From the IMG/VR virus record IMGVR_UViG_3300037755_000687, positions 1 to 45,649 of that record: a stretch of DNA of 45,649 bases; one strand, written 5' to 3'. Both the position numbers and the translations under genes were made by a program. Below, piece by piece: positions 3,974 through 45,649 of the stretch (positions are counted from its first letter, which is position 1; each line of letters starts with the position of its first letter). Origin of the DNA: a virus. Its lineage: Duplodnaviria; Caudoviricetes. The notes beneath the pieces were generated by a model, which had not been told where the DNA came from, did not search any database, and worked only from the letters and a program-made list of their open reading frames with translations.

Positions 3974-5944
3974 GTGAAACTGCTCATCCAATGGGCGAGG
4001 GCTAGTCCTCGCGATTGGGAGCCGGTTGAAGTTTCGGCTTGGGCCGCGCTGCCTAAGTTTGCCGTTCCTGCCTCTGCACTACCTATAGTCGGGGACGACT
4101 CTCCGGGCTGGCTCTGCTCGCTTAATGTGCAAGGCGTGGTGTTCGGCGAGGGCGACCACACTGCGGTCGAGGAATTGCCCGACGGCACGGTGAAAGTCAT
4201 ACATTGGGCTGACGACCCGGCGGACTGGCCCATGGGACAGCGGTGGGCGGTAGAACACTTTTTCGCACCGCTCCAGCCTGACCCCTCGCTGCGCGGCGCA
4301 ATCAACACGAAGCAGACGCGCGTCATTTACGGCGAGCCCGCAGCGTTGGAGCGGCTGCGTACCACGGCACCGACAGATAACTTCAAGGAATGGAGTGAAT
4401 TCGTTCCGCCTGCACCGGAGATCGTACGGCACGGTATTTGGATGACTGACGGGTTGATGACCCAGCACAGAGCGATGCGTCGACAGGTCGGTTACAAGGA
4501 CGCGCCGTTCACCAATCACCTGTCACGCGAAGAGGTAGATGCCGAAGGAAGGTTGAAGCCACAGCGCGTACAGGGCCGCTTCCTGCCGAACACACACACG
4601 ATCACCTACATTTGCCGGGATACTGATCGCGCGGCTGGGTGGGAATCTGCAACTCACGAGGATGCGTTTGAGTTGACGACTGCTGCTGCAGCAACGGAGA
4701 CCCGCGAGATTCCAAATTCGACCCCCTCCACACTAACGTGGATATTCAGCACGCCGTCGAATGAACCAAATAGCAATGATTGGCCAACAGGAGACTACCG
4801 CATTCAGTATGACGTGACGGTGGTTGATTCTGGAGTTTTTATTGATGCCAGCTCTTTTCGTCGCGTCAGCAGCGATCTCTCTGCCACCCTCGCTTCTTTG
4901 GGAAGTGAAGGGACAAATATAACTACGACGGGGCTGCACCTACGATCGATAACGGTGAATCCATTTTCGGGGGATGCTGTAGATCGATTCGGTGTGGGAG
5001 TCTTCTGCGGCAACTCCAATTCCCACGGCAGCAGTCAGACCATCACGCTAGAGCTGAACACCAGTGACTCCTTCGCGGACGGACCATGGGAGGGTGTACA
5101 GACTTTCACTTATGCAGGTTCCGGAGGGGCGGCATTAGGCGGCGCGGCTGCGCTAGCGAAGAACAAAGTATTTACTGCGAGTGGTGGATTGACCGCCGCT
5201 GGTGTGGCTGCGCTAGCGAAGAACAAAGTATTTACTGCGAGTGGTGGATTGACCGCCGCTGGTGTTGCGGTAACATCGCTAAGCGGCGCGACAAATACTT
5301 TCACGTATAGCGCCAGCGGTGGAGCAGCGCTCGGCGGTGCTGCCACACTGGTGAAGATCAAGGCGTTGCTGGCCAGCGGCGGGATGACGTTGGGCGGTGC
5401 TGCCGCTGCGCAGAAGAGCAAGGTGTACATCGCGTCAGGCGGGCTGGCATTGGGCGGCGCGGCTGCGCTGGCAAAGGTGCGCGCGTATTCGGTCTCGGGC
5501 GGGCTGGTGCTGGGCGGGGCGGCATCATTGGCCAAGGGGCGCGTGTTTGTTGCTTCTGGTGGGCTAGTGGCCGGTGGAGCAGCTAGCACGGTGTATGAGT
5601 CCGGAGCGGTCAATACGTACACGTATGCGGGTGCGGGCGGAGCGGCTCTCGGTGGTGTAGCGATCACCAGCTACGAGGAGGGCGTGTTTTTCACTGTTGG
5701 TGGTGGCAGTGTCACGGTGCATCGTCCGCCGCTGAGACCAAAGCCGATTCGTCCTCGCATCCGCGAGTACAGTGCAGCGGGCGGGGCTGTGATGGGCGGT
5801 GCAGCGCGCTCGAGCGTTTTGCATGTCTTCACGGCTTCTCCGCGATATCGGTTGTCTAAATTATCCGGAGAAAGCGCGGCGTGCTGGGTGCAGCGAGTAG
5901 ACGTAGAGGACGAAGAGTTCCTGGAAGTGTTGCGCGCGGCATGA
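3974..5944 (+). CDS. Large Gly/Ala-repeat protein, putative head or neck fibre
   Basis: 656 aa with roughly ten ~20-aa xSGG-L/A-xLGGAA repeats in the C-terminal half and an acidic C-terminus (DVEDEEFLEVL). Confidence 0.65.
   Translation: MKLLIQWARASPRDWEPVEVSAWAALPKFAVPASALPIVGDDSPGWLCSLNVQGVVFGEGDHTAVEELPDGTVKVIHWADDPADWPMGQRWAVEHFFAPLQPDPSLRGAINTKQTRVIYGEPAALERLRTTAPTDNFKEWSEFVPPAPEIVRHGIWMTDGLMTQHRAMRRQVGYKDAPFTNHLSREEVDAEGRLKPQRVQGRFLPNTHTITYICRDTDRAAGWESATHEDAFELTTAAAATETREIPNSTPSTLTWIFSTPSNEPNSNDWPTGDYRIQYDVTVVDSGVFIDASSFRRVSSDLSATLASLGSEGTNITTTGLHLRSITVNPFSGDAVDRFGVGVFCGNSNSHGSSQTITLELNTSDSFADGPWEGVQTFTYAGSGGAALGGAAALAKNKVFTASGGLTAAGVAALAKNKVFTASGGLTAAGVAVTSLSGATNTFTYSASGGAALGGAATLVKIKALLASGGMTLGGAAAAQKSKVYIASGGLALGGAAALAKVRAYSVSGGLVLGGAASLAKGRVFVASGGLVAGGAASTVYESGAVNTYTYAGAGGAALGGVAITSYEEGVFFTVGGGSVTVHRPPLRPKPIRPRIREYSAAGGAVMGGAARSSVLHVFTASPRYRLSKLSGESAACWVQRVDVEDEEFLEVLRAA
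5146..5265 (+). repeat. Exact 60-bp tandem duplication (2 copies) within the repeat protein gene
   Basis: ggctgcgctagcgaagaacaaagta...ccgctggtgt at 5146-5205 and 5206-5265. Confidence 0.95.
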
Positions 5945-22215: not shown

Positions 22216-22293
22216 ACGGTCTCTCCTTGTGTGTATGCGTTGCGGTGCAAAGGCGCACCACACAGCCGCCCGCGAGCGGCTGGTTGCTGCGTC

Positions 22294-23079
22294 CTACTTG
22301 CTGATCTGCTGTTGTGGTGTGGTCTTGTCTTCTAAGGGCGTCGGGTTGAGATTGACCTTGCTGCCCGCGATGCGTCCAGCCATCATCGCTACGGCGCTCT
22401 TGGTGTACTTGACTGCATCCTCCCGTCCGAAACATTGCTCTGGGAAGGCTTCGTTCGCTGCTGCTTGCTTGCTCACCACGAGTGCGGTGCTGGTGCTGTT
22501 GCCGCGCTCCTCTTGGCGCTTCTGCTCAAGCAACTGGCGCAGTCGTGCAGCAATCTCCTGCGCGCAGCCAGTGCGGAAGGCATCCAACGATTCGCGATTG
22601 CTGTTGGCGTGGCCTGCACGCGCTAAGCGCTCAGCAACTTCTTCAAAGTCGCGTCCCAGCCGCCGCACGCAATCGATCAGATACTCGTACGTCCATGCGC
22701 AAATTTGCACGTCCGTCTTGTACCCGTAGAAAGCGACAACGCTGCACGAGCCTTGCCGCAGTTGCACTCGGCGCATGTTCACTTGACAATCGAACAGGTC
22801 AGCGCACGGTGCGGCGATGAATTGCGCCCAGAGTGGCGTATCGGCATTGGGGCGCGGTGCATTCTTGCGGGTAGTGGCGCGCACCCATTGCATCTCCATA
22901 TTGCTGCGGTCCTTCAGCTCCTTGAAGATGACATCGCTCTGTTCCAAGTTATGCTTCTTCATCAGCGTCTGCGCTTGGCGTGCTGCAGTTGCTGCCTCGT
23001 TAGGGGCAGCGCCCGCGTTCTGCGCCAGTGCTAGCAGCTTGCGCACTTTGTCAATGACCTTGGCATGTTCGGGGTTCAT
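22294..23079 (-). CDS. DUF2786-domain protein
   Basis: KVIDKVRKLLALA...NEAATA...AQ.LM.KHNL N-terminal signature. Confidence 0.85.
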   Translation of the reverse strand: MNPEHAKVIDKVRKLLALAQNAGAAPNEAATAARQAQTLMKKHNLEQSDVIFKELKDRSNMEMQWVRATTRKNAPRPNADTPLWAQFIAAPCADLFDCQVNMRRVQLRQGSCSVVAFYGYKTDVQICAWTYEYLIDCVRRLGRDFEEVAERLARAGHANSNRESLDAFRTGCAQEIAARLRQLLEQKRQEERGNSTSTALVVSKQAAANEAFPEQCFGREDAVKYTKSAVAMMAGRIAGSKVNLNPTPLEDKTTPQQQISK

Positions 23080-23282
23080 AGGATGCTCCCAAGTTCATGC
23101 CACTTAACAGCGATCAGGTCGGTCTTGGGCAACGCACGTAACGCGCGGTGCACGGCGCGCTCCATGCTGGCCTTACGCTTCTCTTGCACGAACAGAGTAC
23201 CCGCGCCGTGCGGCGGCGGTACGCGGATTTCCGCGCACCAAGCGCCCGCGATGAAGGCGCTTTGAACGGTGACTTGGATCAT
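23076..23282 (-). CDS. Hypothetical protein (68 aa)
   Basis: ATG 23282 after the repeat-borne SD CAAGGGAA; ATGA overlap with the DUF2786 gene. Confidence 0.65.
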   Translation of the reverse strand: MIQVTVQSAFIAGAWCAEIRVPPPHGAGTLFVQEKRKASMERAVHRALRALPKTDLIAVKWHELGSIL

Positions 23283-23356
23283 GATGTGTTTTCCCTTGTG
23301 TATGGTGCAAGGCGCACCGTGCAGCGCCGCACTAGGCGACGCTGCCCGCTGTACCC

Positions 23357-24166
23357 TTACGCGGCGATCTTCGGGGCGTGACCGTGCCGTGCCATGTAGT
23401 TCATGGTCATGTCCCAAAGGTCCATGTTGACCGCAACTTCGCGGCGAATGTTGGTGATCGGGCGCAGCGTCAACCGCCTGCCCGTGCTGGCTGCGCCCTG
23501 CATGCCGCCGCGCATGATGTTCTCCTGCACGCGGTTGAATACATGCCACAAGTCGCGCCCTTCGTCCTGCGGGCGTTTGACTTCCAGCAGTGCTTCAGGC
23601 TTGATGGGCGCGGCGTCGCTGTAGCGCAGCTTCAACGCATGGCGAGCGTACTCGAGCTGATGCTTGTCGCCGAGCGAGATGCGCTGCATCTGCTGCACGA
23701 CCACGATGCTGTCGCGCGCTTGCGCCAGAACCTGCGTGCTGGCCTTGCCGATCTCTTCCAGCGCGCCCGCGTTGTGGCGGACTTCCACGCTGCCGAAGTT
23801 CTTGTAGGCTACCATCAGCCCATTGCTGCAGATCAGCCGGTACAGCCCAGCGATCAGCCGGTACAGCGTACGTCCGTTGTGGCTGTTGTACACGGTGACG
23901 GTCGGCACCACTTCGCCGAGCAGTGCGCGCCCGCTTTGCGGCTGGAAGACGACCATGTGCCGCCCGTACAGATTGTTATCGCCGCCCTTGTAGCTGCGCT
24001 GTCCCTTGGCTGCGGTGGGCGCAAAGCCTGCAGCGTGCATCGTCTTGACGATGTCCGCCGTGGGGATGAACCCGTACCGCTCGCTGACGCGCTTGCTGGG
24101 GCGCTTGGCAAAGATCGCTGCGCTAGCCGAGCGCAGATCATCGTTTGTGAGTATCTGTTTGTTCAT
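23357..24166 (-). CDS. DUF932-family protein
   Basis: S.RY.FIPT, NSHNG, GLYRLICSNGL and LW.VFNRVQEN motifs. Confidence 0.9.
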   Translation of the reverse strand: MNKQILTNDDLRSASAAIFAKRPSKRVSERYGFIPTADIVKTMHAAGFAPTAAKGQRSYKGGDNNLYGRHMVVFQPQSGRALLGEVVPTVTVYNSHNGRTLYRLIAGLYRLICSNGLMVAYKNFGSVEVRHNAGALEEIGKASTQVLAQARDSIVVVQQMQRISLGDKHQLEYARHALKLRYSDAAPIKPEALLEVKRPQDEGRDLWHVFNRVQENIMRGGMQGAASTGRRLTLRPITNIRREVAVNMDLWDMTMNYMARHGHAPKIAA

Positions 24167-24244
24167 GTGCGTATTCCCTTTCTGGTTGTGTGTTGTGGTG
24201 CAAGGCGCACCAGTCAGCCGCCCGTAAGCGGCTGTAGCTGCGTC

Positions 24245-24724
24245 CTACCCGAACATGCCGGGGTATTCCACGCTCTCCACATTGTCGGAGATGTCTCGGA
24301 CTTCTTCTGCGTAGCTACGCGCTTCCCCTGCCTGTTCTTGCTCGGCCTCGGTCGCACTTTCTTTCTGCTCCAGCCGTTCAGCGATCGCTTCCGCTGCATC
24401 CGCCGCAGCTTGTAATGCTTGCACTGCGTTGCTATTGCGCGTGTCGCGGCTGTCGCCTCGGCCCTTGCGGGCATTGTGCATTTCGTGCCATTGCACTTCT
24501 TCCGCCGCCATAAAGCCCGGCACGTCCGGCTCATTGTCCACGTAGTTGCCCAGCGTGTCGGCGGTCTCGCTCAGCGTTTGGATGCGCTGAGTGTTCTCTA
24601 GCCCTGTTCCGCTGGCGTTGTCAACGATCTCCTGCACTTCGTCGCGCAGGCTTTGCAACTCACTCAGCGCGTCAGCAACAACGCCGCTGATCGCGCCCTT
24701 GTGCTGTGTCGTTTTGTAGGCCAT
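24245..24724 (-). CDS. Acidic helical hypothetical protein
   Basis: ATG 24724 after the repeat SD; ends VEYPGMFG. Confidence 0.75.
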   Translation of the reverse strand: MAYKTTQHKGAISGVVADALSELQSLRDEVQEIVDNASGTGLENTQRIQTLSETADTLGNYVDNEPDVPGFMAAEEVQWHEMHNARKGRGDSRDTRNSNAVQALQAAADAAEAIAERLEQKESATEAEQEQAGEARSYAEEVRDISDNVESVEYPGMFG

Positions 24725-24808
24725 GTTCGTTTCCCTTGTGGTGTGTGGTGCAAAGTGCACCGTGCAGCGCCGCGCAGTGCGGCGCTGCCCGCTGACCTTT
24801 GCGGTTTG

Positions 24809-24988
24809 TTACTGCACGATCGACGCCTTTTTGCCCTTCACCATCTTGCGGGCGGTCTTGCGGCTGACGGCACAGACGGTGCCGTTGCGCAGCTTGACCG
24901 CGACCGGCGCGCGTTTGCGCCCGTGACGCTTGAAGCCCTTGATGAACGACTTGGCGGCTTTGACCGATTTGAACGATTGAACTTGCAT
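24809..24988 (-). CDS. Small, very basic protein (59 aa; absent from the ORF track)
   Basis: MQVQSFKSVKAAKSFIKGFKRHGRKRAPVAVKLRNGTVCAVSRKTARKMVKGKKASIVQ; SD AAGGAG; fills the space between two repeats. Confidence 0.75.
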   Translation of the reverse strand: MQVQSFKSVKAAKSFIKGFKRHGRKRAPVAVKLRNGTVCAVSRKTARKMVKGKKASIVQ

Positions 24989-25081
24989 GGTGATTCTCCT
25001 TGGTGATGTGGTGTGATGCAGCGGAATGCCGCACCCTACAGCCGCCCTTCGGTGAAGAGCGACTGTCAGTTGCGCACTCGG

Positions 25082-25387
25082 TTACTTGCCGCAGTCCGGA
25101 CCGCAGGGCTGAAGCTGACTACTGTTTACACGGTCACGCACATCCTTCAGGTCGCTGCACAGCAAGGTGTGCGTATAGTCGGGGCTGAAATGGTAGCCGC
25201 GCGGAGCCATCACTTCGTACTTGATGCTGTTGGTTGCGTCGCCCACGTATTCGATCGGGCAAGTCATCTTGGGGCGCGGTATACGGTTTTCTACGTCGCA
25301 CTCAATGTACCCGTACAGCGGGTACACAGGTTTGCGGCTGTTGTAATCCTCCTTCTGTGCATTGGTCGCGGTATAAGAGCGGCTCAT
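25082..25387 (-). CDS. Hypothetical protein
   Basis: ATG 25387 after the repeat SD; its stop lies inside the next repeat. Confidence 0.7.
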   Translation of the reverse strand: MSRSYTATNAQKEDYNSRKPVYPLYGYIECDVENRIPRPKMTCPIEYVGDATNSIKYEVMAPRGYHFSPDYTHTLLCSDLKDVRDRVNSSQLQPCGPDCGK

Positions 25388-25463
25388 GGCTGTTGTCCCT
25401 TGTGTATGTGGTGCAAGGCGCACCGTGCAGCGCCACTAATTAAGTGACGCTGCCCGCTATACC

Positions 25464-25820
25464 TTACGGCAGGATTTTGACTGTGACCCGCAAGCCGCCA
25501 AAGATGAACGACACTTGTTGGTCGCGCTTGCTGACTTCCAAGTGTAGTTCCTGCAGCATGCTAGGCGCAGGCTCCTGCCCTTTCTTGCTGATCACGTACT
25601 GACCGGGATCGGTTTTGGTCAGCAAGCCTTGCTTCGCCAATGCACGCATCTGCACCGCGACTTTCTGCGGTAACAGTCGCGTATGGTAAAGCTCGACGAT
25701 GCCAGCAAAGCTGCACACTTCCGCGATGGACATCGCAGCGGGTGCAGCGCGCAAGCATCCAAGGATACGCTCCCGGAGGAGCGCGGCGCGTTTCAAATCG
25801 TTGCTACGTGTGGAGACCAT
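25464..25820 (-). CDS. Putative winged-helix DNA-binding protein
   Basis: ILGCL....MSIAEV...VAVQMRALAKQGLLTK...GQY pattern. Confidence 0.55.
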   Translation of the reverse strand: MVSTRSNDLKRAALLRERILGCLRAAPAAMSIAEVCSFAGIVELYHTRLLPQKVAVQMRALAKQGLLTKTDPGQYVISKKGQEPAPSMLQELHLEVSKRDQQVSFIFGGLRVTVKILP

Positions 25821-25886
25821 AGTGTTTTCCCTTGTAGTGGTGCAAGGCGCACCAGTCAGCCGCCCATGAGCGGCTGTAGCTGCGTC

Positions 25887-26108
25887 CTACTCGGCGTCTT
25901 CCATAGCTGCGTAGTCCGCGCGGATTTCAGCGAACACTTCTTCAAAAGCGATTCCGGTCATGTGTGCGAGCCGTTTGACAAGTCGGAGCGCACGGAAATA
26001 AATCTCCGCGGAACCACCACAAGTTAAGACGCTCCCGTAATTGCCTGCGATGTACTCACGCAGTAAACCAGCGTCTGTAAAGGTGCTACGAGTGAAAGCG
26101 ACTCTCAT
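25887..26108 (-). CDS. Hypothetical protein, first gene of the early array
   Basis: SD CAAGGGAA; flanked by repeats. Confidence 0.7.
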   Translation of the reverse strand: MRVAFTRSTFTDAGLLREYIAGNYGSVLTCGGSAEIYFRALRLVKRLAHMTGIAFEEVFAEIRADYAAMEDAE

Positions 26109-26523
26109 GGTTGTTTTCCCTTGTGTTGGCGTTGCGGGTGCAACGCACTGCGCAGCATCTTCGGCTCCGTGAGCGGTTATGTTCGGGGCGCTGCCCGTGT
26201 GAGCATTGGAAGGTGCTGCGCACTGCGTTGCTATGCAGTGACCACGGCGGCGTCTTGCGTGCCGTGGTTTGTAGTTCAGGTTCTTTGCCCTTGTCCGCTC
26301 GTGGCGCTGCGCGTGTCGCGCTGCATGGTACCGGGCGTTAGGGGGCTTACTAGCTGCGGCTGGCCTGCGCTACCCGTGACTGCGGGACCCTAGCGTGGCG
26401 GACCGTAACTGCCAGCGTCTTCCCTCTTGCTGGCCTTGGCGCACCTTGTTGTCCTTTACCCTAGGACCCCGCCAAGTAGGGGGGCTACCATCAGCCCCAC
26501 AGTGCACTACCTACTAGCTACGA

Positions 26524-26681: not shown

Positions 26682-27413
26682 TTACACGCGAATGTTTATC
26701 GTCGTTCCGCGCGCTATTGGACACAACGGATCGGCACACTGCACGACGCTGCCCGCGCCGCCGATTTTGAACAGGCAACGCGCACACTGCGCAGGCAGTT
26801 CCGCGCCTTGCACTTGCAGCACGGTACCGGGTTCAGCGGCTTGGTCATGACCGTGGAACTTATGCGGCAATTCCGCGCCGTGCGTAGTCACTTTCTCGCG
26901 GCATACAACGCACGTCCACAATTTGCGTCCGTCGCCGTAGCTGCCTTCGTGCACAAAGTCGTAGAACGTGCCGTGCGGCTTGCCGCGCAGACAATCATAA
27001 GTGCTGCCGTCGGGCATGGTGAACGTGCCGTCCGGCGTAGCGATCACGTTCTTCATCAGCCAGTCCAGCGCAGCCGCATTCGCGCGTGCGGCTTCAGCGC
27101 TGTCGGTTTTCAACTGTTGCGCTTGTTGCAGAATCACCTGCTCTAATGCCAGATGCACACGCGCGCGTTTGGCTTCCAGTACACCGAGACGCTCTGCGGC
27201 TGCGCTTACCTCGATGTACTTCTGCATGAAGTGCAGCGCCTTGCGCAAATCCTCCAGTCCGTTCTTCTCCCAGCAACGCTCTACGTACTTGGTGATCATG
27301 TACTGGAAGAAGTCAAACCCCAGCCGCACCGCGCGATCCCAATGCTGCTCGCCCGGGATTTTGCGGTAGTGGTCGCCGCCTTCTTGTCGGTCGTTAGCCT
27401 TGCTCTCGGACAT
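26682..27413 (-). CDS. DUF3310 (SaV-like) protein with a C-terminal Cys/His-rich region
   Basis: QEGGDHY, KY..R...KNGLEDL.KA..F motifs; CVVC, CARC and CADPLC at the C-terminus. Confidence 0.8.
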   Translation of the reverse strand: MSESKANDRQEGGDHYRKIPGEQHWDRAVRLGFDFFQYMITKYVERCWEKNGLEDLRKALHFMQKYIEVSAAAERLGVLEAKRARVHLALEQVILQQAQQLKTDSAEAARANAAALDWLMKNVIATPDGTFTMPDGSTYDCLRGKPHGTFYDFVHEGSYGDGRKLWTCVVCREKVTTHGAELPHKFHGHDQAAEPGTVLQVQGAELPAQCARCLFKIGGAGSVVQCADPLCPIARGTTINIRV

Positions 27414-27936
27414 AAGTCCTCCGTTCACGTTGTTGAAATCTACCGCGCGCTTCTGTCTCCCACCATTTTCCGGGAGGCGGATTGTTATCTCCTTCACCGT
27501 ACTGATACGGGATAAATGCCCATTGCACATCGCCGCGATCGCTGTCTGCGTCCAGTTGTCGCAACATGCCCCAGACACGTCCAGGTTTCGGCGTGCCTGC
27601 GATGAAAATGCTCCACGTGTACAGCCGAGGGATCAGCAGCACCAGATGGAAGTGATCGCCGCCGATGTAGTTCAACCACCGTTTGACCACAGTCTTCCAG
27701 CGGCGTTGCTCCGTGTACGCGCCGCAGATGATTAAGGACAGACTCCAATCCCATGGATGATCGTGCACGCCTTGCGCCGGGTCGTCGCTGGCAAGGAAGC
27801 GATGCAGATACACGTGCCGCCCGAACGGTGAGCCGATATAGTACCGTTCGAGATACGGCCGGTTGTGCACCTTGATCAAGCGGCAGCGCAGCCAGCCACT
27901 CAACCAGAATAGCAGTGTGTTCATCAAGCTGTTCAT
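27394..27936 (-). CDS. Cupin-fold (cysteine-dioxygenase-like) protein
   Basis: YLHRF..SD....HDHPW...S.I..G.Y.E and a downstream HFH.V. ATG overlaps the stop of the thymidylate synthase-like gene. Confidence 0.65.
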   Translation of the reverse strand: MNSLMNTLLFWLSGWLRCRLIKVHNRPYLERYYIGSPFGRHVYLHRFLASDDPAQGVHDHPWDWSLSLIICGAYTEQRRWKTVVKRWLNYIGGDHFHLVLLIPRLYTWSIFIAGTPKPGRVWGMLRQLDADSDRGDVQWAFIPYQYGEGDNNPPPGKWWETEARGRFQQRERRTYVREQG

Positions 27937-29039
27937 TGCTTCTGCTCCAATTGCGCTTTGACAGCGCGTCGGTTGATCCATATGGCAGCGGCCAGTGCCC
28001 AATCCTCCGCTGCACATAGCAGCGCCCAGCGCAGCGCAGTGTCGTAGTCGCCGCGCAGCCGCGCCGCATACGCATTGAACAGCGGTACGGCTACTTCGTG
28101 GAAGAGCGGGTTTTTCCAATCGGGCGAACCCATGATGATTTCTGGTTTGTTCATGTGTCCTTGTGCCAGACCCATAAACTCGTCGAGATCGGAAAACCAC
28201 GTTCTCGGGTATTTGAGCAACGGATACGGATCCACTGGCCTCGGGTGCCAGAATCCGTATCCGGTTGCAACTTCGGTGTCCGTGTACGGATCGTAATGAT
28301 CTCCGTTGTGTACGTCCCCGTATGCGTGCAGTACACGCTGCCACGATGGTTCGTCCTCGTAGACGTGGAAACTGTCACTCATCTGCGTGTATTTGCCCAC
28401 ACTAGCGTCCAGCATAGAGGCCAGCACTTCTTGGATGACGCTGAATTGCACCACATTCGCGCCGTACGCGCCCCAGATAACGTCGTTACTGCGATTCGCG
28501 ACCAGCATGTTGAGCGCGCCTTCGCGCAGCTTGAAGAACAGCGTGCAGTTGCATGGCATGTCCTTGCCCATGTAGCCGCTGTCCAGCGCGGGCGTCCACA
28601 GCCCAATGACTGCGCGGCGGCTGTTGCGGTCACGGTGCAATTCAGCAACGACGTTCTCAAACTGATTGGTGGACTCCCGCCAGCCGCCCGCAGCAACACG
28701 CACAGCCCGCCGCATGCGCGCGCCGTATGCACCGTGGAACACGAAGCCATCGTCGCTGTACTCGGTGATGCGTGGCAAGAAGAAGCGCAGCCACTCTACG
28801 TCAGCACGCCCTGCCATGATCCACAGCGATTCAAAGAAGTGGAAGAACGGATTGGCATCGCGTGCAGGGCTGAACAGCACGCGCTCGCGTGGCTGCACGT
28901 ACACGGTAGCTACGGGCTCCATGTACTCCAACGTTGAGCGTCCGCGCGGCGCGATGCGTCGCACGTTGAGGCCAGCGCGGAGCAACTGTATCGCGCGCGG
29001 TAGCGCATGATTTACGTTTCGGGCAGTGATGACGCGCAT
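27933..29039 (-). CDS. Thymidylate synthase homologue, probable dUMP hydroxymethylase
   Basis: NPFFHFFE..W, SRRAVI, KDMPCN (catalytic Cys) and NRSNDVIWG..GAN. The Asn aligns with the uracil-specifying N177 of ThyA. Confidence 0.88.
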   Translation of the reverse strand: MRVITARNVNHALPRAIQLLRAGLNVRRIAPRGRSTLEYMEPVATVYVQPRERVLFSPARDANPFFHFFESLWIMAGRADVEWLRFFLPRITEYSDDGFVFHGAYGARMRRAVRVAAGGWRESTNQFENVVAELHRDRNSRRAVIGLWTPALDSGYMGKDMPCNCTLFFKLREGALNMLVANRSNDVIWGAYGANVVQFSVIQEVLASMLDASVGKYTQMSDSFHVYEDEPSWQRVLHAYGDVHNGDHYDPYTDTEVATGYGFWHPRPVDPYPLLKYPRTWFSDLDEFMGLAQGHMNKPEIIMGSPDWKNPLFHEVAVPLFNAYAARLRGDYDTALRWALLCAAEDWALAAAIWINRRAVKAQLEQKQ

Positions 29040-29042
29040 GTG

Positions 29043-29903
29043 TCAGACTCCTTGGTAGAGACTACGTGGTTTACCTTCACCCAGCTTGACGCGCAGGTAC
29101 TTGTCTGTTTCGCAAAGCGAGTGTTCGATGTCCCGCATTTCTAGCTCCGGCATGTGCTTCTCCAAGTACAGCGGCGCAAGGTCCAGTAAGTGCTTCATCT
29201 CTTGCACAGCTTGGTCTTCACGGACGCTTTTATCAAGCGGTCTGCCATGCAGCCTGTTCAGACCACGCTTGGCTCCGGGTCCTGCATTCGCCCATGTCGA
29301 TATATCGGGGGCTTTGTCCAGCCATCCGGGGCACCAGCGTAGATCACACGCAGCCTCGTACGCCATAAAGCCGCCGATGCCGCCGATGCGTTGCGCCTCC
29401 TGACAAAACACGCGCAGTCCTTGTCGCGCTGCGCGTGCTAGGGCTAACCGATTCTGCCATGCAGTCTCCAGCACTCCCCGTACGATGTAAAGCGGCTTCG
29501 GCATCGCATTGCCGTTTGTGCTGACAGTGTACGCATTGGTCCATACTTGATCGCCGCGCGCGCCTCGAGTGTCCAGTGCTGCGACTGTGGCACGCCAGTC
29601 GAATTCATTGTTGGGGTACCAGACCCCCAGCTTGATCAGCTCTGCCAGCGTATCAGGCCAGTTGATAAATCGCGCGGTGAACATCATGTGCCACAGATGC
29701 TCGCTATCTGCGTATGGCTTGCGGATATGGTCACGCACCCATTGCGTCACCTTGTCGAGCTCGCGGAACACATTGCAAAAACGATACCGCTGCAGGATAG
29801 GATCAGCCGTCCACGGCTTGGGACCATTCATCAGGTCCTTATTCCACCAGATGCGATGTCGCTCGTTAATCCAGTAGAACAGAGGCGTCGGGTTCAGAGA
29901 CAT
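29043..29903 (-). CDS. 5-hydroxymethyluracil DNA kinase (aGPT-Pplase1 family)
   Basis: ERH.I....GP.PWT.DPIL..YRFCNV.RE.D, GGFMAYE...D, GPGA.RGL and IEHSLCE.DKY.R. Confidence 0.9.
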   Translation of the reverse strand: MSLNPTPLFYWINERHRIWWNKDLMNGPKPWTADPILQRYRFCNVFRELDKVTQWVRDHIRKPYADSEHLWHMMFTARFINWPDTLAELIKLGVWYPNNEFDWRATVAALDTRGARGDQVWTNAYTVSTNGNAMPKPLYIVRGVLETAWQNRLALARAARQGLRVFCQEAQRIGGIGGFMAYEAACDLRWCPGWLDKAPDISTWANAGPGAKRGLNRLHGRPLDKSVREDQAVQEMKHLLDLAPLYLEKHMPELEMRDIEHSLCETDKYLRVKLGEGKPRSLYQGV

Positions 29904-30453
29904 TGAGAATTTCCTTGCATCGGTTGTAAACGTAATCCCAGCCGCCGCGCTCGGTGCGTAGCCCCGCCTCGGTCAGACGGCGGTACCAGCTAGCAACGCT
30001 CTCCGCCTTGCGCAGTAAATTAGATGGGTCTAATGGTGTCTCGTTGCCGCGCGCGGCACGGCGCGTCCCTACGTGCGCGATGCACTGCTGCACGGGTGTA
30101 TCCAGCCAGAAGAACGTGACGTCGCCTATGCCCGCAGCGAGCTCGCGGCAGGTCTCTATACCGGGTGTTATTAGGCTTTCCATAATGACAGGATTGCCAA
30201 AGTCGCGGGCGCGTGTGATCGCTGCACGGACGCCCGCTGCGTAAGGCTGCACGGTGTCAAAGCCGCCTGTTGCGCCCCGGTACTTGCCAACAAACATGAT
30301 GTCGGGGCGGTCAGCGCGCAGCACGCCTGTCATGACGGCTTCTTCGGAGTGCACCCAGCACTCGTAGACCGGACCTTGCGCGCAGATCATCAGGCAGCGC
30401 GCAAGCATGGTCTTACCTGCGCCATTGGTACCGTGGATATACACTCCGCTCAT
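29866..30453 (-). CDS. P-loop nucleotide kinase (5-hmdUMP kinase candidate)
   Basis: IHGTNGAGKT Walker A, VGKY....GG.D and LDTP...C...V..RR lid motif. ATG 30453. Confidence 0.75.
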   Translation of the reverse strand: MSGVYIHGTNGAGKTMLARCLMICAQGPVYECWVHSEEAVMTGVLRADRPDIMFVGKYRGATGGFDTVQPYAAGVRAAITRARDFGNPVIMESLITPGIETCRELAAGIGDVTFFWLDTPVQQCIAHVGTRRAARGNETPLDPSNLLRKAESVASWYRRLTEAGLRTERGGWDYVYNRCKEILNVSEPDASVLLD

Positions 30454-30455
30454 GG

Positions 30456-30788
30456 TCAGCTCTGCTTGTCTGCGCGCGCCAGCGCGTGCGCGTCGCTGTA
30501 CTTGGCGGGATAGCGCAGCCGCAGCTTCTCGATATTGGCGCGCGCCACGGTGTCTAGCGGCATTTCCAACGCATCTGCAAGTTGACTCACGAACCACATG
30601 ATGTCTCCGAGCTCTTCTAATACATTGGGACGATCGAGTGCTTTGCCGTAATACAGAAACGCTTTGATCGTGGTGGCAAGCTCGCCAGCCTCACTGCAAC
30701 AGCCGAGCGCCAGATGCGCAAGCGCGTCCTCGTATTTCATCTCCTTGCGCGTGCGCGCAGCTAATTCTTGGTATTCGTTGAGTTGCAT
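30456..30788 (-). CDS. MazG-like nucleotide pyrophosphohydrolase
   Basis: NEYQ..A.RT, LG...EAGE, EELGD..W and NI.KL..RYP. Confidence 0.9.
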   Translation of the reverse strand: MQLNEYQELAARTRKEMKYEDALAHLALGCCSEAGELATTIKAFLYYGKALDRPNVLEELGDIMWFVSQLADALEMPLDTVARANIEKLRLRYPAKYSDAHALARADKQS

Positions 30789-30792
30789 AGTT

Positions 30793-31617
30793 CTACTCCT
30801 CTTCGGGTGGATGGTATGGCAAGCCGCAAGTCAATGCAGCTTTCAATTCTTCGATGATGGGTGCAAAATCTAAGCTAGTCACGTAGCTCAGACGACGATA
30901 CGCTTTGGCAGTGCGCGCGCCGTACGTATACCCGCCGCCTTTGTACTGATGATACACGCACGCAATGGTCTCTGCCTCCTGCATGTTCAGCGGACGGTCG
31001 TAGCGCGGCGGCGCTAGGCGCAGCGGGCGCGGCAGCGCGGCCAGCATGTCGGCGTAGATACGCTCCATCAGTACGTCTTCGGGCTTTGCATACAGTTGTG
31101 GTGCGATGTACTGGCGCGCACCGTTTTGCGGTACCTTGGGCGAATGCTCAGCCGCGCCAGTAAAGTCGCAAGGAATACCAAAGACGCGCTCCTGCACGTC
31201 TGCGAATTTCCAGTAGAAGTAATCTCCGAAAAGTCGCACCTTCTGCAGATTTTGCCGCACTGTGAAGTAAGACGCGCCAAAGTTCTCATCCACCATGCGC
31301 TCGGGCGCGCGGTACATGGCGCACCATTCTTGCAGCGCGCGCCGTCCTGCTGCGCCCCGGAAGTGACGACGCTCGCTAGCGCGCGGCGCGGTGTCGTACT
31401 GGCTGGCAAGGAAGCGCCAGAATTGCTCTCCCTGATACTTGGCTGCAGCCGCCGCGATGCCCGGATGGTAGTACGTACACCAGCCCACGAAGACGCGCAT
31501 TTTGGTGCCTGTGTCAAGGTCCGCGCGGGCTAGCGCGTAGTACATGGGGTCAGCATCTTCCATGCAAAACATACGCTCAGCGAAGATGTCCCATCTGTCT
31601 TGTGTCACGGCACCCAT
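30793..31617 (-). CDS. Amino acid:DNA transferase (aGPT-Pplase2 family)
   Basis: D.DPMY, PRASERRHFRG, FG.Y..WK.AD..ER and QEAET..C motifs. Confidence 0.85.
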   Translation of the reverse strand: MGAVTQDRWDIFAERMFCMEDADPMYYALARADLDTGTKMRVFVGWCTYYHPGIAAAAAKYQGEQFWRFLASQYDTAPRASERRHFRGAAGRRALQEWCAMYRAPERMVDENFGASYFTVRQNLQKVRLFGDYFYWKFADVQERVFGIPCDFTGAAEHSPKVPQNGARQYIAPQLYAKPEDVLMERIYADMLAALPRPLRLAPPRYDRPLNMQEAETIACVYHQYKGGGYTYGARTAKAYRRLSYVTSLDFAPIIEELKAALTCGLPYHPPEEE

Positions 31618-37391: not shown

Positions 37392-38126
37392 TTAGAATGG
37401 TACCGACAGCCCGATCAGCATTTGCCGCAGCGGGCCTCCCGCTACACCAGAGCAATGACCGCACCCATGTTGAGCGGCGCGGATGCGTCCATAGTCACGC
37501 GCGCTTACCAACAGATACTTGTAGCGCACCGTGGCACCGATGTAAACCGTGGCTTGTGTACCGCGCCAGCGAAGGTCCGCCCATCCGGGGCGCGGCCACG
37601 TACCCGCAGGCTCCGGGTTCAAATGAATCTTGACTTCGCCGTCGTACAGCAAGCCGCCCGCCTCCGCGCCAAGCTGCGCGCCGCGCACGGTCCATTCGGC
37701 CACGTACCCAAAGCTGAAGCCGCGCGCGCTTTGATGCACTTGCCCGCGCATGAGACAGCCGGACATTGTGCTGGGGTCACAACTGAGCCCATCGAAGGCG
37801 GGCAGGGCTTGCTCGGCCTCTACCGTGGGGTATACGCCGAAAGCGTGCGCAGTCCCCATGTCCACATAAGCTACGCGCCAGCCCAGCGCCAAGGACCCTG
37901 CATTGCGCCCCATAGACGATATGGCGAGCATACTGCAGCCCGCGCGCATATCCAGCTTGTAGTCGTATTTGACGTTGAACCAAATGCCGTCCCCGACTTC
38001 GGTGTATGTGCAGCGCCCGCCGAGCGCCTCGAAGCGCAACTCGCTTTCAGCACGAGCGATAGACACTGTTGTCGCCAACACCACAGCCCAGAGCAAAGTG
38101 AGCCAAATCTTCTCGGTGATTTTCAT
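37392..38126 (-). CDS. Secreted protein, outer-membrane beta-barrel candidate
   Basis: Signal peptide ending ARA-E, alternating Gly/aromatic strands, C-terminal ...IGLSVPF. Confidence 0.6.
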   Translation of the reverse strand: MKITEKIWLTLLWAVVLATTVSIARAESELRFEALGGRCTYTEVGDGIWFNVKYDYKLDMRAGCSMLAISSMGRNAGSLALGWRVAYVDMGTAHAFGVYPTVEAEQALPAFDGLSCDPSTMSGCLMRGQVHQSARGFSFGYVAEWTVRGAQLGAEAGGLLYDGEVKIHLNPEPAGTWPRPGWADLRWRGTQATVYIGATVRYKYLLVSARDYGRIRAAQHGCGHCSGVAGGPLRQMLIGLSVPF

Positions 38127-45234: not shown

Positions 45235-45649
45235 ATGATGAAACAACGAAATCATCATCGTTGGTATGATTCAGTGAGATGGTTGCGCCTACGCGCGGCG
45301 CATCTCGCGCGCGAGCCCTTATGCAGGTATTGTGCTCGACAGGGACTGGTAGTGCAGGCCACAGTCGTAGATCATATAGTCCGGCACAGGGGTGATAAGG
45401 TGTTGTTTTTCGATGGGAAGAACCTTCAGTCGCTATGCAAGACATGCCATGACAGTGTTAAGCAACGCGAGGAACTAGGTCAGATAGTGCATACATACGA
45501 TACGCATGGCATGCCTATGCATGCAGCGCACCCATGGAACATGGGGCTCCCCGAGGGGGGAGGAGCCTCGTCGTCTCCATTTCTTTTATTTTCTTCCTCT
45601 CTTGAAACAGGGGGGGATGATCGAAAATCTTCATCGCAGATCAAACCAG
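45235..45649 (+). CDS. HK97 gp74-like HNH endonuclease, runs off the window end (absent from the ORF track)
   Basis: Y...RW..LR...L.REPLCRYC......ATVVDHI..H.GD..LF.D..NLQSLC..CHD..K, then G.P....HPWN. Confidence 0.9.
   Translation, partial: MMKQRNHHRWYDSVRWLRLRAAHLAREPLCRYCARQGLVVQATVVDHIVRHRGDKVLFFDGKNLQSLCKTCHDSVKQREELGQIVHTYDTHGMPMHAAHPWNMGLPEGGGASSSPFLLFSSSLETGGDDRKSSSQIKP

What the first reader, a model, noticed from the sequence alone, without database searches (positions are those of the whole stretch)
26682..31617. Thymidine hypermodification cluster with a cupin in place of the known tailoring enzymes: candidate new DNA base
Seen in the sequence: a tightly packed run of amino acid:DNA transferase, MazG-like enzyme, P-loop kinase, 5-hmdU DNA kinase, TS-like enzyme (Asn, so uracil-specific), cupin and DUF3310/Zn protein. 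Established knowledge: in Pseudomonas phages M6 and PaMx11, Salmonella phage ViI and Delftia phage PhiW-14, 5-hmdU is phosphorylated on DNA and substituted by glycine, serine or putrescine. In M6, ViI and PaMx11 the adduct is then tailored by PLP decarboxylase, radical SAM, FAD-dependent or acetyltransferase enzymes. I recognise none of those tailoring enzymes in this window. Inference: the DNA carries either an untailored amino acid-thymine adduct or one oxidised by the cupin, which would be an undescribed base, here in an HK97-type cos-like siphovirus.
Basis: partly seen in the sequence, partly recalled or inferred. Interest (0 to 1): 0.85.

Follow-up and report, generated by a model that had tools for sequence, protein, structure and literature searches.

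The report
Phage thymine modification with unknown donor
An uncultured soil/sediment phage carries a gene set predicted to decorate thymine in its DNA, using a transferase from a large untested branch whose donor pocket differs from those of the glycine- and diamine-using enzymes, so the base may be new, while the neighbouring cupin is probably a common mobile phage gene rather than part of the chemistry.

Summary
The seven-gene run is real and intact. One label needs correcting: the P-loop gene is the M6 gp54-type 5-hmdU DNA kinase, and the 286-aa gene is the clade-1 aGPT-Pplase. No PLP, radical-SAM, FAD, GNAT, HD or dCMP-deaminase gene was found in the near-complete genome.

The cupin does not replace tailoring enzymes. 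None of 27 related viral loci of this transferase clade had a tailoring gene or a cupin. The cupin sits in the slot held by an HD nucleotidase in 27 of 27 informative clade loci. Its family is large (4,517 representatives) and mostly found away from modification genes. MazG probably takes over the HD role.

The interesting part is the transferase. It keeps the catalytic Cys and metal ligands, but its donor pocket is V221/Q224/Y230/R235, against K/S/Y/D (glycine) and G/H/D/D (diamine). It belongs to a well-supported clade with a cultured member, Rhodoferax phage P26218, for which I found no base analysis.

Most likely product: an untailored amino-acid-thymine adduct, either terminal glycinyl-T or a new base. 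Cupins sit near modification genes in three other lineages, so a role is not excluded (about 10%).

The parts
30793..31617 (-). Amino acid/amine:DNA transferase (ADDT, aGPT-Pplase2), 274 aa; catalytic C220, metal ligands D23/E216/T217, E82, K137 kept; donor pocket V221/Q224/Y230/R235
   Evidence: PF18724; 41% to P26218 gp14, 27-30% to characterised enzymes; residue mapping; model matches PaMx11 gp46 at Z 30.6, rmsd 2.0, 260 aligned
30456..30788 (-). MazG-like NTP pyrophosphatase, inferred dTTPase/dUTPase that takes over from the missing HD nucleotidase
   Evidence: PF03819, phrog_229; found in 0 of 41 HD-bearing versus 3 of 13 HD-lacking lineages, p=0.012
29866..30453 (-). P-loop kinase, homologue of M6 gp54/PaMx11 gp49 5-hmdU DNA kinases, 195 aa
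   Evidence: PF18748 only at E 0.008, below cut-off; profile-profile 99.9%, E 2.6e-34 to YuA gp13/PaMx11 gp49-type kinases; 41% to P26218 gp15
29043..29903 (-). Clade-1 aGPT-Pplase (Pfam HMUDK_hel), function not established, 286 aa
   Evidence: PF18723 E 6e-47; 44% YuA gp14, 35% PaMx11 gp50; seen in only 6 of 29 clade loci
27933..29039 (-). Thymidylate-synthase-fold enzyme of the dUMP hydroxymethylase type, 368 aa
   Evidence: 39-40% to YuA gp17/PaMx11 gp51 with the same GAN column; best cultured hits are M6-like and SPO1-like phages; best PDB hit is a hydroxymethylase
27394..27936 (-). Small metal-type monocupin (H45, H58, H60, H97 conserved), phrog_4786 family, sitting in the HD slot, 180 aa
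   Evidence: dN/dS 0.073 against L072; cupin-DUF3310 adjacency kept in L073 at 63%/49% identity
26682..27413 (-). DUF3310-like protein with a Cys/His-rich C-terminal extension, usual last gene of these clusters, 243 aa
   Evidence: 44% over 73 aa to P26218 gp18; alignment; atlas lead; dN/dS 0.051

Best explanation
The phage likely builds 5-hydroxymethyluracil into its DNA, phosphorylates it, and has the transferase swap the phosphate for a small, probably carboxylate-bearing donor, leaving that adduct as the likely final base with the cupin probably uninvolved. Shown by sequence: an intact HMase-type TS, an M6 gp54-type kinase, and a transferase with the catalytic Cys and metal ligands. Inferred from characterised pathways: dUMP to 5-hmdUMP, incorporation by the adjacent PolA, 5-PmdU on DNA, Cys attack at C6, exocyclic methylene, donor addition. 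Inferred from co-occurrence: MazG removes dTTP/dUTP in place of the HD nucleotidase. Inferred from the pocket: E82 and K137 still match the glycine amino- and carboxylate-binding residues, and K248/D262 of YuA is exchanged for V221/R235, which keeps a second basic group. The donor would be glycine held by a compensatory swap (terminal glycinyl-T, so far described as an intermediate) or, about as likely, a different amino acid, which would be a new base. The purpose would be protection from host nucleases.
For: Catalytic and metal residues kept, pocket changed (against the residues in PMC13458397). V/I at 221 always goes with R at 235 (143 of 188 sequences, a set biased to window relatives and partly redundant); K at 221 always goes with D (21 of 21). 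The 44 V-Q-x-R rows form one side of a branch with 99 support that excludes YuA, PaMx11, SH-Ab 15599 and PhiW-14 (FastTree, 82 rows). 0 of 27 clade loci have a PLP/rSAM/FAD/GNAT hit, against 13 of 19 K248-type loci; Pfam on 93 representatives of 177 unannotated neighbours found none of these families. HD follows the HMase in 27 of 27 informative clade loci. A cupin is the next gene after the HMase in 0 of 112 other loci. 0 of 13 cupin-centred loci outside this lineage and the L136 lineage carry modification genes. At least 73 of 88 cultured-phage records with the cupin family are Mycobacterium, Burkholderia, Gordonia or Xylella phages, genera not named in the ADDT or HMase tallies. T-containing 4-bp palindromes are mostly not avoided (GATC 1.05, CATG 1.08) while GGCC (0.56) and CCGG (0.72) are; weak support only.
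Against: No chemistry has been done. The serine transferase ViI gp247 could not be aligned (hhalign probability 0.1%), so serine is not excluded. The geometry of R235 was not measured. Loci reach at most 10 kb each side and many are cut, while ViI keeps its PLP gene about 10 kb from its transferase. The cupin is under purifying selection, overlaps both neighbours and is kept in the slot in a relative at 63% identity. Family members lie near modification genes in three other lineages, once directly between ADDT and PLP genes (L132). The kinase is below the Pfam cut-off. No dCMP deaminase was found, so dUMP supply must come from the host or from MazG. AGCT is also somewhat avoided (0.80).
Confidence: 0.6

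Rival explanations
1. The cupin is part of the base pathway in this lineage: a 3-His, thiol-dioxygenase-like enzyme that oxidises a sulfur-containing adduct on DNA, or makes the donor (for example a sulfinate), which the Arg-containing pocket would bind.
For: Top Foldseek hits are thiol dioxygenases (E about 1e-4, TM 0.44-0.48). Four His are conserved in 99-100% of 148 relatives. dN/dS 0.073. The slot is kept in L072 and L073. Cupins lie near HMase clusters in three other lineages, in L132 between ADDT and PLP. The transferase mechanism accepts thiols (beta-mercaptoethanol adduct, PMC8989533). This lineage has Ala/Thr where 89% of relatives have His113.
Against: The same pocket signature occurs in 29 loci without any cupin. 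The fold match is generic, with many cupins tied at Z 8-9. The family has 4,517 representatives and sits in lambdoid, Mu-like and mycobacteriophage accessory regions, so chance neighbours are expected. The four modification-linked cupins do not group together in a quick tree, though long branches make this weak. No DNA-base oxidase of this cupin class is known to me (recalled).
Confidence: 0.11
2. The transferase uses a donor that is not an amino acid, or its adduct is tailored by an unrecognised phage gene (clade-1 Pplase, DUF3310, or a distant gene) or by a host enzyme.
For: Two pocket residues suffice to switch donor class (PMC13458397), so prediction from sequence is weak. DUF3310 is in nearly all clade loci. 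Several window ORFs have no family. At least some sequence is missing from the contig.
Against: Clade-1 Pplase is absent from 23 of 29 clade loci and M6 gp55 was dispensable for adduct formation (PMC8989533). The missing stretch lies between the HNH gene and TerL, where HK97-like genomes carry TerS within about 0.5 kb.
Confidence: 0.2
3. The pathway stops at 5-hmdU or 5-phosphomethyl-dU, because the transferase or kinase of this clade is inactive or does something else.
For: Kinase below the Pfam cut-off; pocket unlike the characterised ones.
Against: C220, E216 and E82 are invariant in 118 clade-centred sequences; kinase and transferase stay linked in all 29 clade loci; the fold matches PaMx11 gp46 closely.
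Confidence: 0.07

Closest known systems
Pseudomonas phage M6/YuA (5-NedU) and PaMx11 (5-AcNmdU) glycine pathways
   Same: Same core genes and similar order (ADDT, P-loop kinase, clade-1 Pplase, HMase, DUF3310); same fold and catalytic residues; E96/K159/Y257 equivalents kept.
   Different: Only about 29% identity; K248, S251, D262 become V, Q, R; no PLP/rSAM or FAD/GNAT genes; HD replaced by a cupin; MazG inserted; no dCMP deaminase found; HK97-type head and 46 kb genome.
Delftia phage PhiW-14 (putrescinyl-T) and Acinetobacter phage SH-Ab 15599 (diaminopropanyl-T), diamine:DNA transferases
   Same: Kinase plus transferase give the final base with no tailoring; a phage dTTPase/dUTPase feeds the pathway (15599 gp18).
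   Different: Their pocket is acidic (G227/H230/D238/D243); here it is V/Q/Y/R, which should disfavour a diamine; 27-29% identity.
Rhodoferax phage P26218 gp14-gp18 cluster (cultured; no base analysis found)
   Same: Same transferase clade and V/Q/Y/R pocket (41%), kinase 41%, order PolA-VRR-SNF2-ADDT-kinase-HMase-slot-DUF3310, no tailoring genes nearby.
   Different: P26218 is a podovirus, has HD in the slot, and has no MazG, clade-1 Pplase or cupin in the 16.8 kb examined.
Phage 'cysteine dioxygenase' cupins (phrog_4786) and thiol dioxygenases
   Same: Cupin fold, HDH motif plus distal His.
   Different: No Pfam CDO_I hit; no sequence match to any PDB chain; the Ser-His-Tyr motif of CDO (recalled) is not visible; no member with a tested function was found.

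Membership tests
ADDT / aGPT-Pplase2 transferases | PF18724 above cut-off and HhH-type fold of PaMx11 gp46 | tested here: met
   74.8 bits against cut-off 26.2; Z 30.6, rmsd 2.0
ADDT / aGPT-Pplase2 transferases | Catalytic Cys and metal ligands (15599 C226, D25, E222, T223) | tested here: met
   C220, D23, E216, T217
ADDT / aGPT-Pplase2 transferases | Transfers a donor to 5-PmdU DNA | not testable with these tools
   Needs an in vitro assay
Glycine:DNA transferases (M6/YuA/PaMx11) | Pocket D24, E96, K159, K248, Y257, D262 | tested here: not met
   4 of 6 kept; K248 is V221 and D262 is R235; separate clade. It may still use glycine by a compensatory swap.
Diamine:DNA transferases (PhiW-14, SH-Ab 15599) | Acidic pocket G227, H230, D238, D243 | tested here: not met
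   V221, Q224, Y230, R235
Serine:DNA transferase (ViI gp247) | Pocket residues and nearby PLP decarboxylase | tested here: inconclusive
   gp247 could not be aligned; no PLP gene found
5-hmdU DNA kinase (M6 gp54 type) | P-loop kinase homologous to gp54/gp49 | tested here: met
   hhalign 99.9% over 175 columns, HMM E 3e-31; Pfam PF18748 alone is below cut-off
dUMP hydroxymethylase | TS fold, Asn for uracil, grouping with phage HMases | tested here: met
   hydroxymethylation versus methylation itself is inferred
Cysteine/thiol dioxygenases | Cupin fold with a 3-His metal site | tested here: met
   H58, H60, H97 conserved; fold; metal binding inferred
Cysteine/thiol dioxygenases | PF05995 match and outer-sphere Ser-His-Tyr motif (motif recalled) | tested here: not met
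   No Pfam hit; the matching strand has S109, F111, A113
2OG-Fe(II) DNA oxidases (TET/JBP/AlkB) | Fold and sequence match to the 2OG-Fe(II) class | tested here: inconclusive
   No Pfam hit; top structural matches are small cupins

The most novel reading that the evidence does not exclude
This lineage has recruited a 3-His thiol-dioxygenase-like cupin into thymidine hypermodification. The Arg-pocket transferase attaches a sulfur-containing donor and the cupin oxidises it, or supplies it already oxidised, giving a sulfinate- or taurine-like thymine, a DNA counterpart of tRNA taurinomethyluridine. The milder novel case, a new untailored base made across the whole V-Q-x-R clade without the cupin, is about 0.4 likely.
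Probability: 0.1. Interest if true: 0.85.

Novelty: new variant of a known kind. Interest (0 to 1): 0.47.

Why it matters
A widespread transferase clade, found in podoviruses and in this HK97-type siphovirus, appears to make a final thymine adduct with only a kinase and a transferase, and its pocket differs from the characterised glycine and diamine classes. Its donor is directly testable, because a cultured member on a freshwater bacterium (P26218) exists and the published pooled-donor LC-MS screen applies unchanged. The result would be either a new DNA base or the first case I found of glycinyl-thymine as an end product; each would extend the pocket-to-donor code and the DNA-labelling toolbox. 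New donors in this family are already expected in the literature, which limits the surprise.

Tried and rejected
Cupin as replacement for tailoring enzymes: rejected on clade context. Cupin as replacement for HD function: position fits, and family members are fused to NUDIX and dATP/dGTP pyrophosphohydrolase domains (1 of 30 long relatives scanned out of 148), but the association with HD loss is not significant (1 of 41 against 2 of 13 lineages, p=0.14); kept as an idea only. No 2OG-Fe(II) enzyme was among the top 50 PDB rows, which does not exclude the class. Single-protein and first-alignment searches for cupin loci in IMG/VR found nothing. L075-L077 were spurious frames over an AMP-ligase gene and were dropped. 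An attempted control set of non-modifying phages via the SNF2 gene gave only 2 loci, so enrichment of cupins near HMase genes could not be tested against a fair background. The first transferase tree was unresolved because of ViI; ViI, L063, L064, L046 and most protein-only rows were dropped. No RNA holder was listed. Earlier scan notes: nothing by place or sequence; word hits concerned other systems. Literature: no paper held phage + cupin + 5-hydroxymethyluracil + hypermodification; six papers matched the transferase terms; 'Rhodoferax' and 'P26218' were absent from the readable supplement text of PMC13458397, 'Rhodoferax' from PMC5889632, and 'cupin' from PMC8989533. Pocket logos for other clusters (Fig. 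3E/H and S6B of PMC13458397) and Fig. 2 of PMC8989533 are pictures I could not read, so this clade may already be drawn there.
Full report
Observation. The seven minus-strand ORFs at 26682-31617 are intact and tightly packed, downstream of PolA, VRR-NUC and SNF2 genes. Families: ADDT (PF18724), MazG (PF03819), a P-loop protein, HMUDK_hel (PF18723), a thymidylate-synthase-fold enzyme, a cupin (phrog_4786) and a DUF3310-like protein. Contigs from two other studies span the TS-cupin-DUF3310 junctions. The held genome is this one contig, with no terminal repeat. It starts just before TerL, which is closest to HK97-like coliphages, and ends in an HNH gene. A contig from the possible source run extends 738 bases further left, which fits a missing TerS but was not read.

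Which gene is the kinase. In PMC8989533 (sections 15, 16, 17, 21, 23 read) the proven 5-hmdU DNA kinases are P-loop proteins (M6 gp54, PaMx11 gp49), and M6 gp55 was not needed for adduct formation. The window's P-loop protein is below the Pfam cut-off, but a profile of 26 clade kinases matches 28 YuA/PaMx11-type kinases at 99.9%. The 286-aa gene matches PaMx11 gp50 and YuA gp14, that is the clade-1 aGPT-Pplase, and is present in only 6 of 29 clade loci. The TS-fold enzyme has the same GAN column as YuA gp17 and PaMx11 gp51 and its best cultured hits are M6-like and SPO1-like phages, so dUMP hydroxymethylase is the likely activity.

No known tailoring gene. Pfam scans of 63 and 76 ORFs and tblastn with YuA PLP and rSAM, PaMx11 FAD and GNAT and ViI PLP enzymes (best E 0.012) found none. 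HD nucleotidase and dCMP deaminase were not found either.

The transferase. Its model matches PaMx11 gp46 (Z 30.6, rmsd 2.0). PMC13458397 (abstract, Results parts 1-3 of 4, Discussion and supplement passages read) defines the glycine pocket as D24, E96, K159, K248, Y257, D262 and the diamine pocket as G227, H230, D238, D243, and shows that two substitutions switch the donor. The window enzyme keeps C220, D23, E216, T217, E82, K137 and Y230, but has V221, Q224 and R235. This V/I-Q-x-R signature is in 143 of 188 aligned sequences, a set biased to window relatives and partly redundant. V/I always goes with R, and K always with D. In a FastTree of 82 rows the 44 signature rows form one side of a branch with 99 support, apart from YuA, PaMx11, SH-Ab 15599 and PhiW-14. 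ViI gp247 could not be aligned, so serine is untested. The nearest cultured member is Rhodoferax phage P26218 (41%); passages of its genome paper (PMC4657236) mention no base analysis. Reading of the pocket, which is inference: a second basic residue is kept, so the donor is probably anionic. Either R235 replaces K248 and glycine remains the donor, or V221 opens room for another amino acid.

Clade context. In 29 loci with the signature the usual order is ADDT, kinase, (Pplase1), HMase, HD, DUF3310; HD follows the HMase in all 27 that extend far enough, once with an ORF between. None of the 27 IMG/VR loci has a PLP, rSAM, FAD or GNAT hit, against 13 of 19 K248-type loci. Pfam on 93 representatives of 177 unannotated neighbours, and PHROGs on 30 of them, gave HNH, NrdR-like, DUF932, pyrimidine-dimer glycosylase and similar genes only. 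The loci are at most 20 kb and often cut, so distant genes are not excluded. The absence of tailoring genes is therefore a clade property, and the window's cupin lies in the HD slot. Among 54 HMase lineages (78 loci with at least 3 kb each side), window-like MazG was in 0 of 41 with HD and 3 of 13 without (p=0.012). This fits MazG doing the dTTP/dUTP clearing shown for 15599 gp18.

The cupin. The model (pLDDT 87) is a small cupin. Foldseek ranks thiol dioxygenases first (E about 1e-4), while the wide search ties many cupins at Z 8-9. H45, H58, H60 and H97 are 99-100% conserved in 148 relatives, and His113 of the family is Ala here. It is under purifying selection (dN/dS 0.073 against L072), and L073 keeps cupin-DUF3310 at 63%/49% identity; the contexts of the other close relatives could not be fetched. 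The family has 4,517 representatives at 50% clustering and at least 88 cultured records, 73 of them Mycobacterium, Burkholderia, Gordonia or Xylella phages, genera not named in the ADDT or HMase tallies (2 and 5 records there are unlisted). None of 13 cupin-centred loci outside this lineage and the L136 lineage has modification genes; examples are lambdoid and Mu-like early regions.

Results against my reading. A broader HMM found cupins in 6 of 129 ADDT- or HMase-centred loci, in three lineages: after PolA in L065; two genes after DUF3310 in L134-L138, a glycosyltransferase/rSAM cluster; and directly between ADDT and PLP in the M6-type locus L132. Two of the three lack HD, but the link is not significant (p=0.14), and I could not build a fair background. 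Fusions to NUDIX, dATP/dGTP pyrophosphohydrolase and a kinase-methyltransferase hint at a nucleotide or small-molecule role.

Mechanism and verdict. Most likely (0.6): hmdU is incorporated, phosphorylated on DNA and substituted once with a carboxylate-bearing donor, with no tailoring and no role for the cupin. Rivals: another donor type or unrecognised tailoring (0.2); cupin-dependent chemistry (0.11); pathway stopping early (0.07). The system is a member of the kinase-plus-ADDT family by fold and catalytic residues, fails the pocket tests for the glycine and diamine classes, and is a new variant of a known kind. PMC13458397 already expects further donors in untested clusters, and its cluster logos are pictures I could not read. 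Other papers seen: PMC11472151, PMC5889632, PMC9599517 and PMC12686479 as passages; PMC11955845 part 1 of 2. CDO motif details, the HK97 HNH-TerS-TerL order and tRNA taurinomethyluridine chemistry beyond the mention are recalled.

Noticed in passing
window 22236-26135: A family of intergenic repeats (up to 61 nt, 85-93% identical) lies just upstream of several minus-strand accessory genes; one run skips 25407-25837 between two copies. Possible phage promoters or recombination cassettes.
   Followed up: partly
window 3974-5944 (+): A 656-aa ORF between portal and prohead protease has no Pfam, PHROG or NCBIfam hit.
   Followed up: no
window 45235-45648 (+): HNH endonuclease at the right end of the contig, as expected just before cos and TerS in HK97-type genomes (order recalled).
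   Followed up: partly
L132 3647-9252: M6-type cluster with a cupin of the same family inserted between the glycine-type ADDT and the PLP gene; best natural test case for a cupin role.
   Followed up: partly
L035-L043, L046, L050 around the ADDT gene: Another untested transferase clade (pocket mostly M/A/K/D) with two tandem P-loop kinases and no known tailoring hit.
   Followed up: no
L134, L136-L138 (L136 6446-12586): Kinase-less, ADDT-less cluster: glycosyltransferase, radical SAM/SPASM, clade-1 Pplase, HMase, DUF3310, then a cupin.
   Followed up: no
L099 622-3758, L110 8273-11321, L119 7108-11050: TET-associated glycosyltransferase (PF20691) beside clade-1 Pplase and HMase with no kinase hit, suggesting direct glycosylation of hmdU.
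   Followed up: no
L065 11248-14410: PaMx11-like cluster with FAD oxidoreductase, an unknown 331-aa ORF and a low-molecular-weight phosphatase in place of a GNAT hit.
   Followed up: no
L078 10507-13109: Diversity-generating retroelement-like genes (Lcl_C targets, bAvd, reverse transcriptase) next to a cupin homologue.
   Followed up: no
window 37392-38126 (-): 244-aa ORF with a signal-peptide-like N-terminus among the replication genes, no family hit.
   Followed up: no
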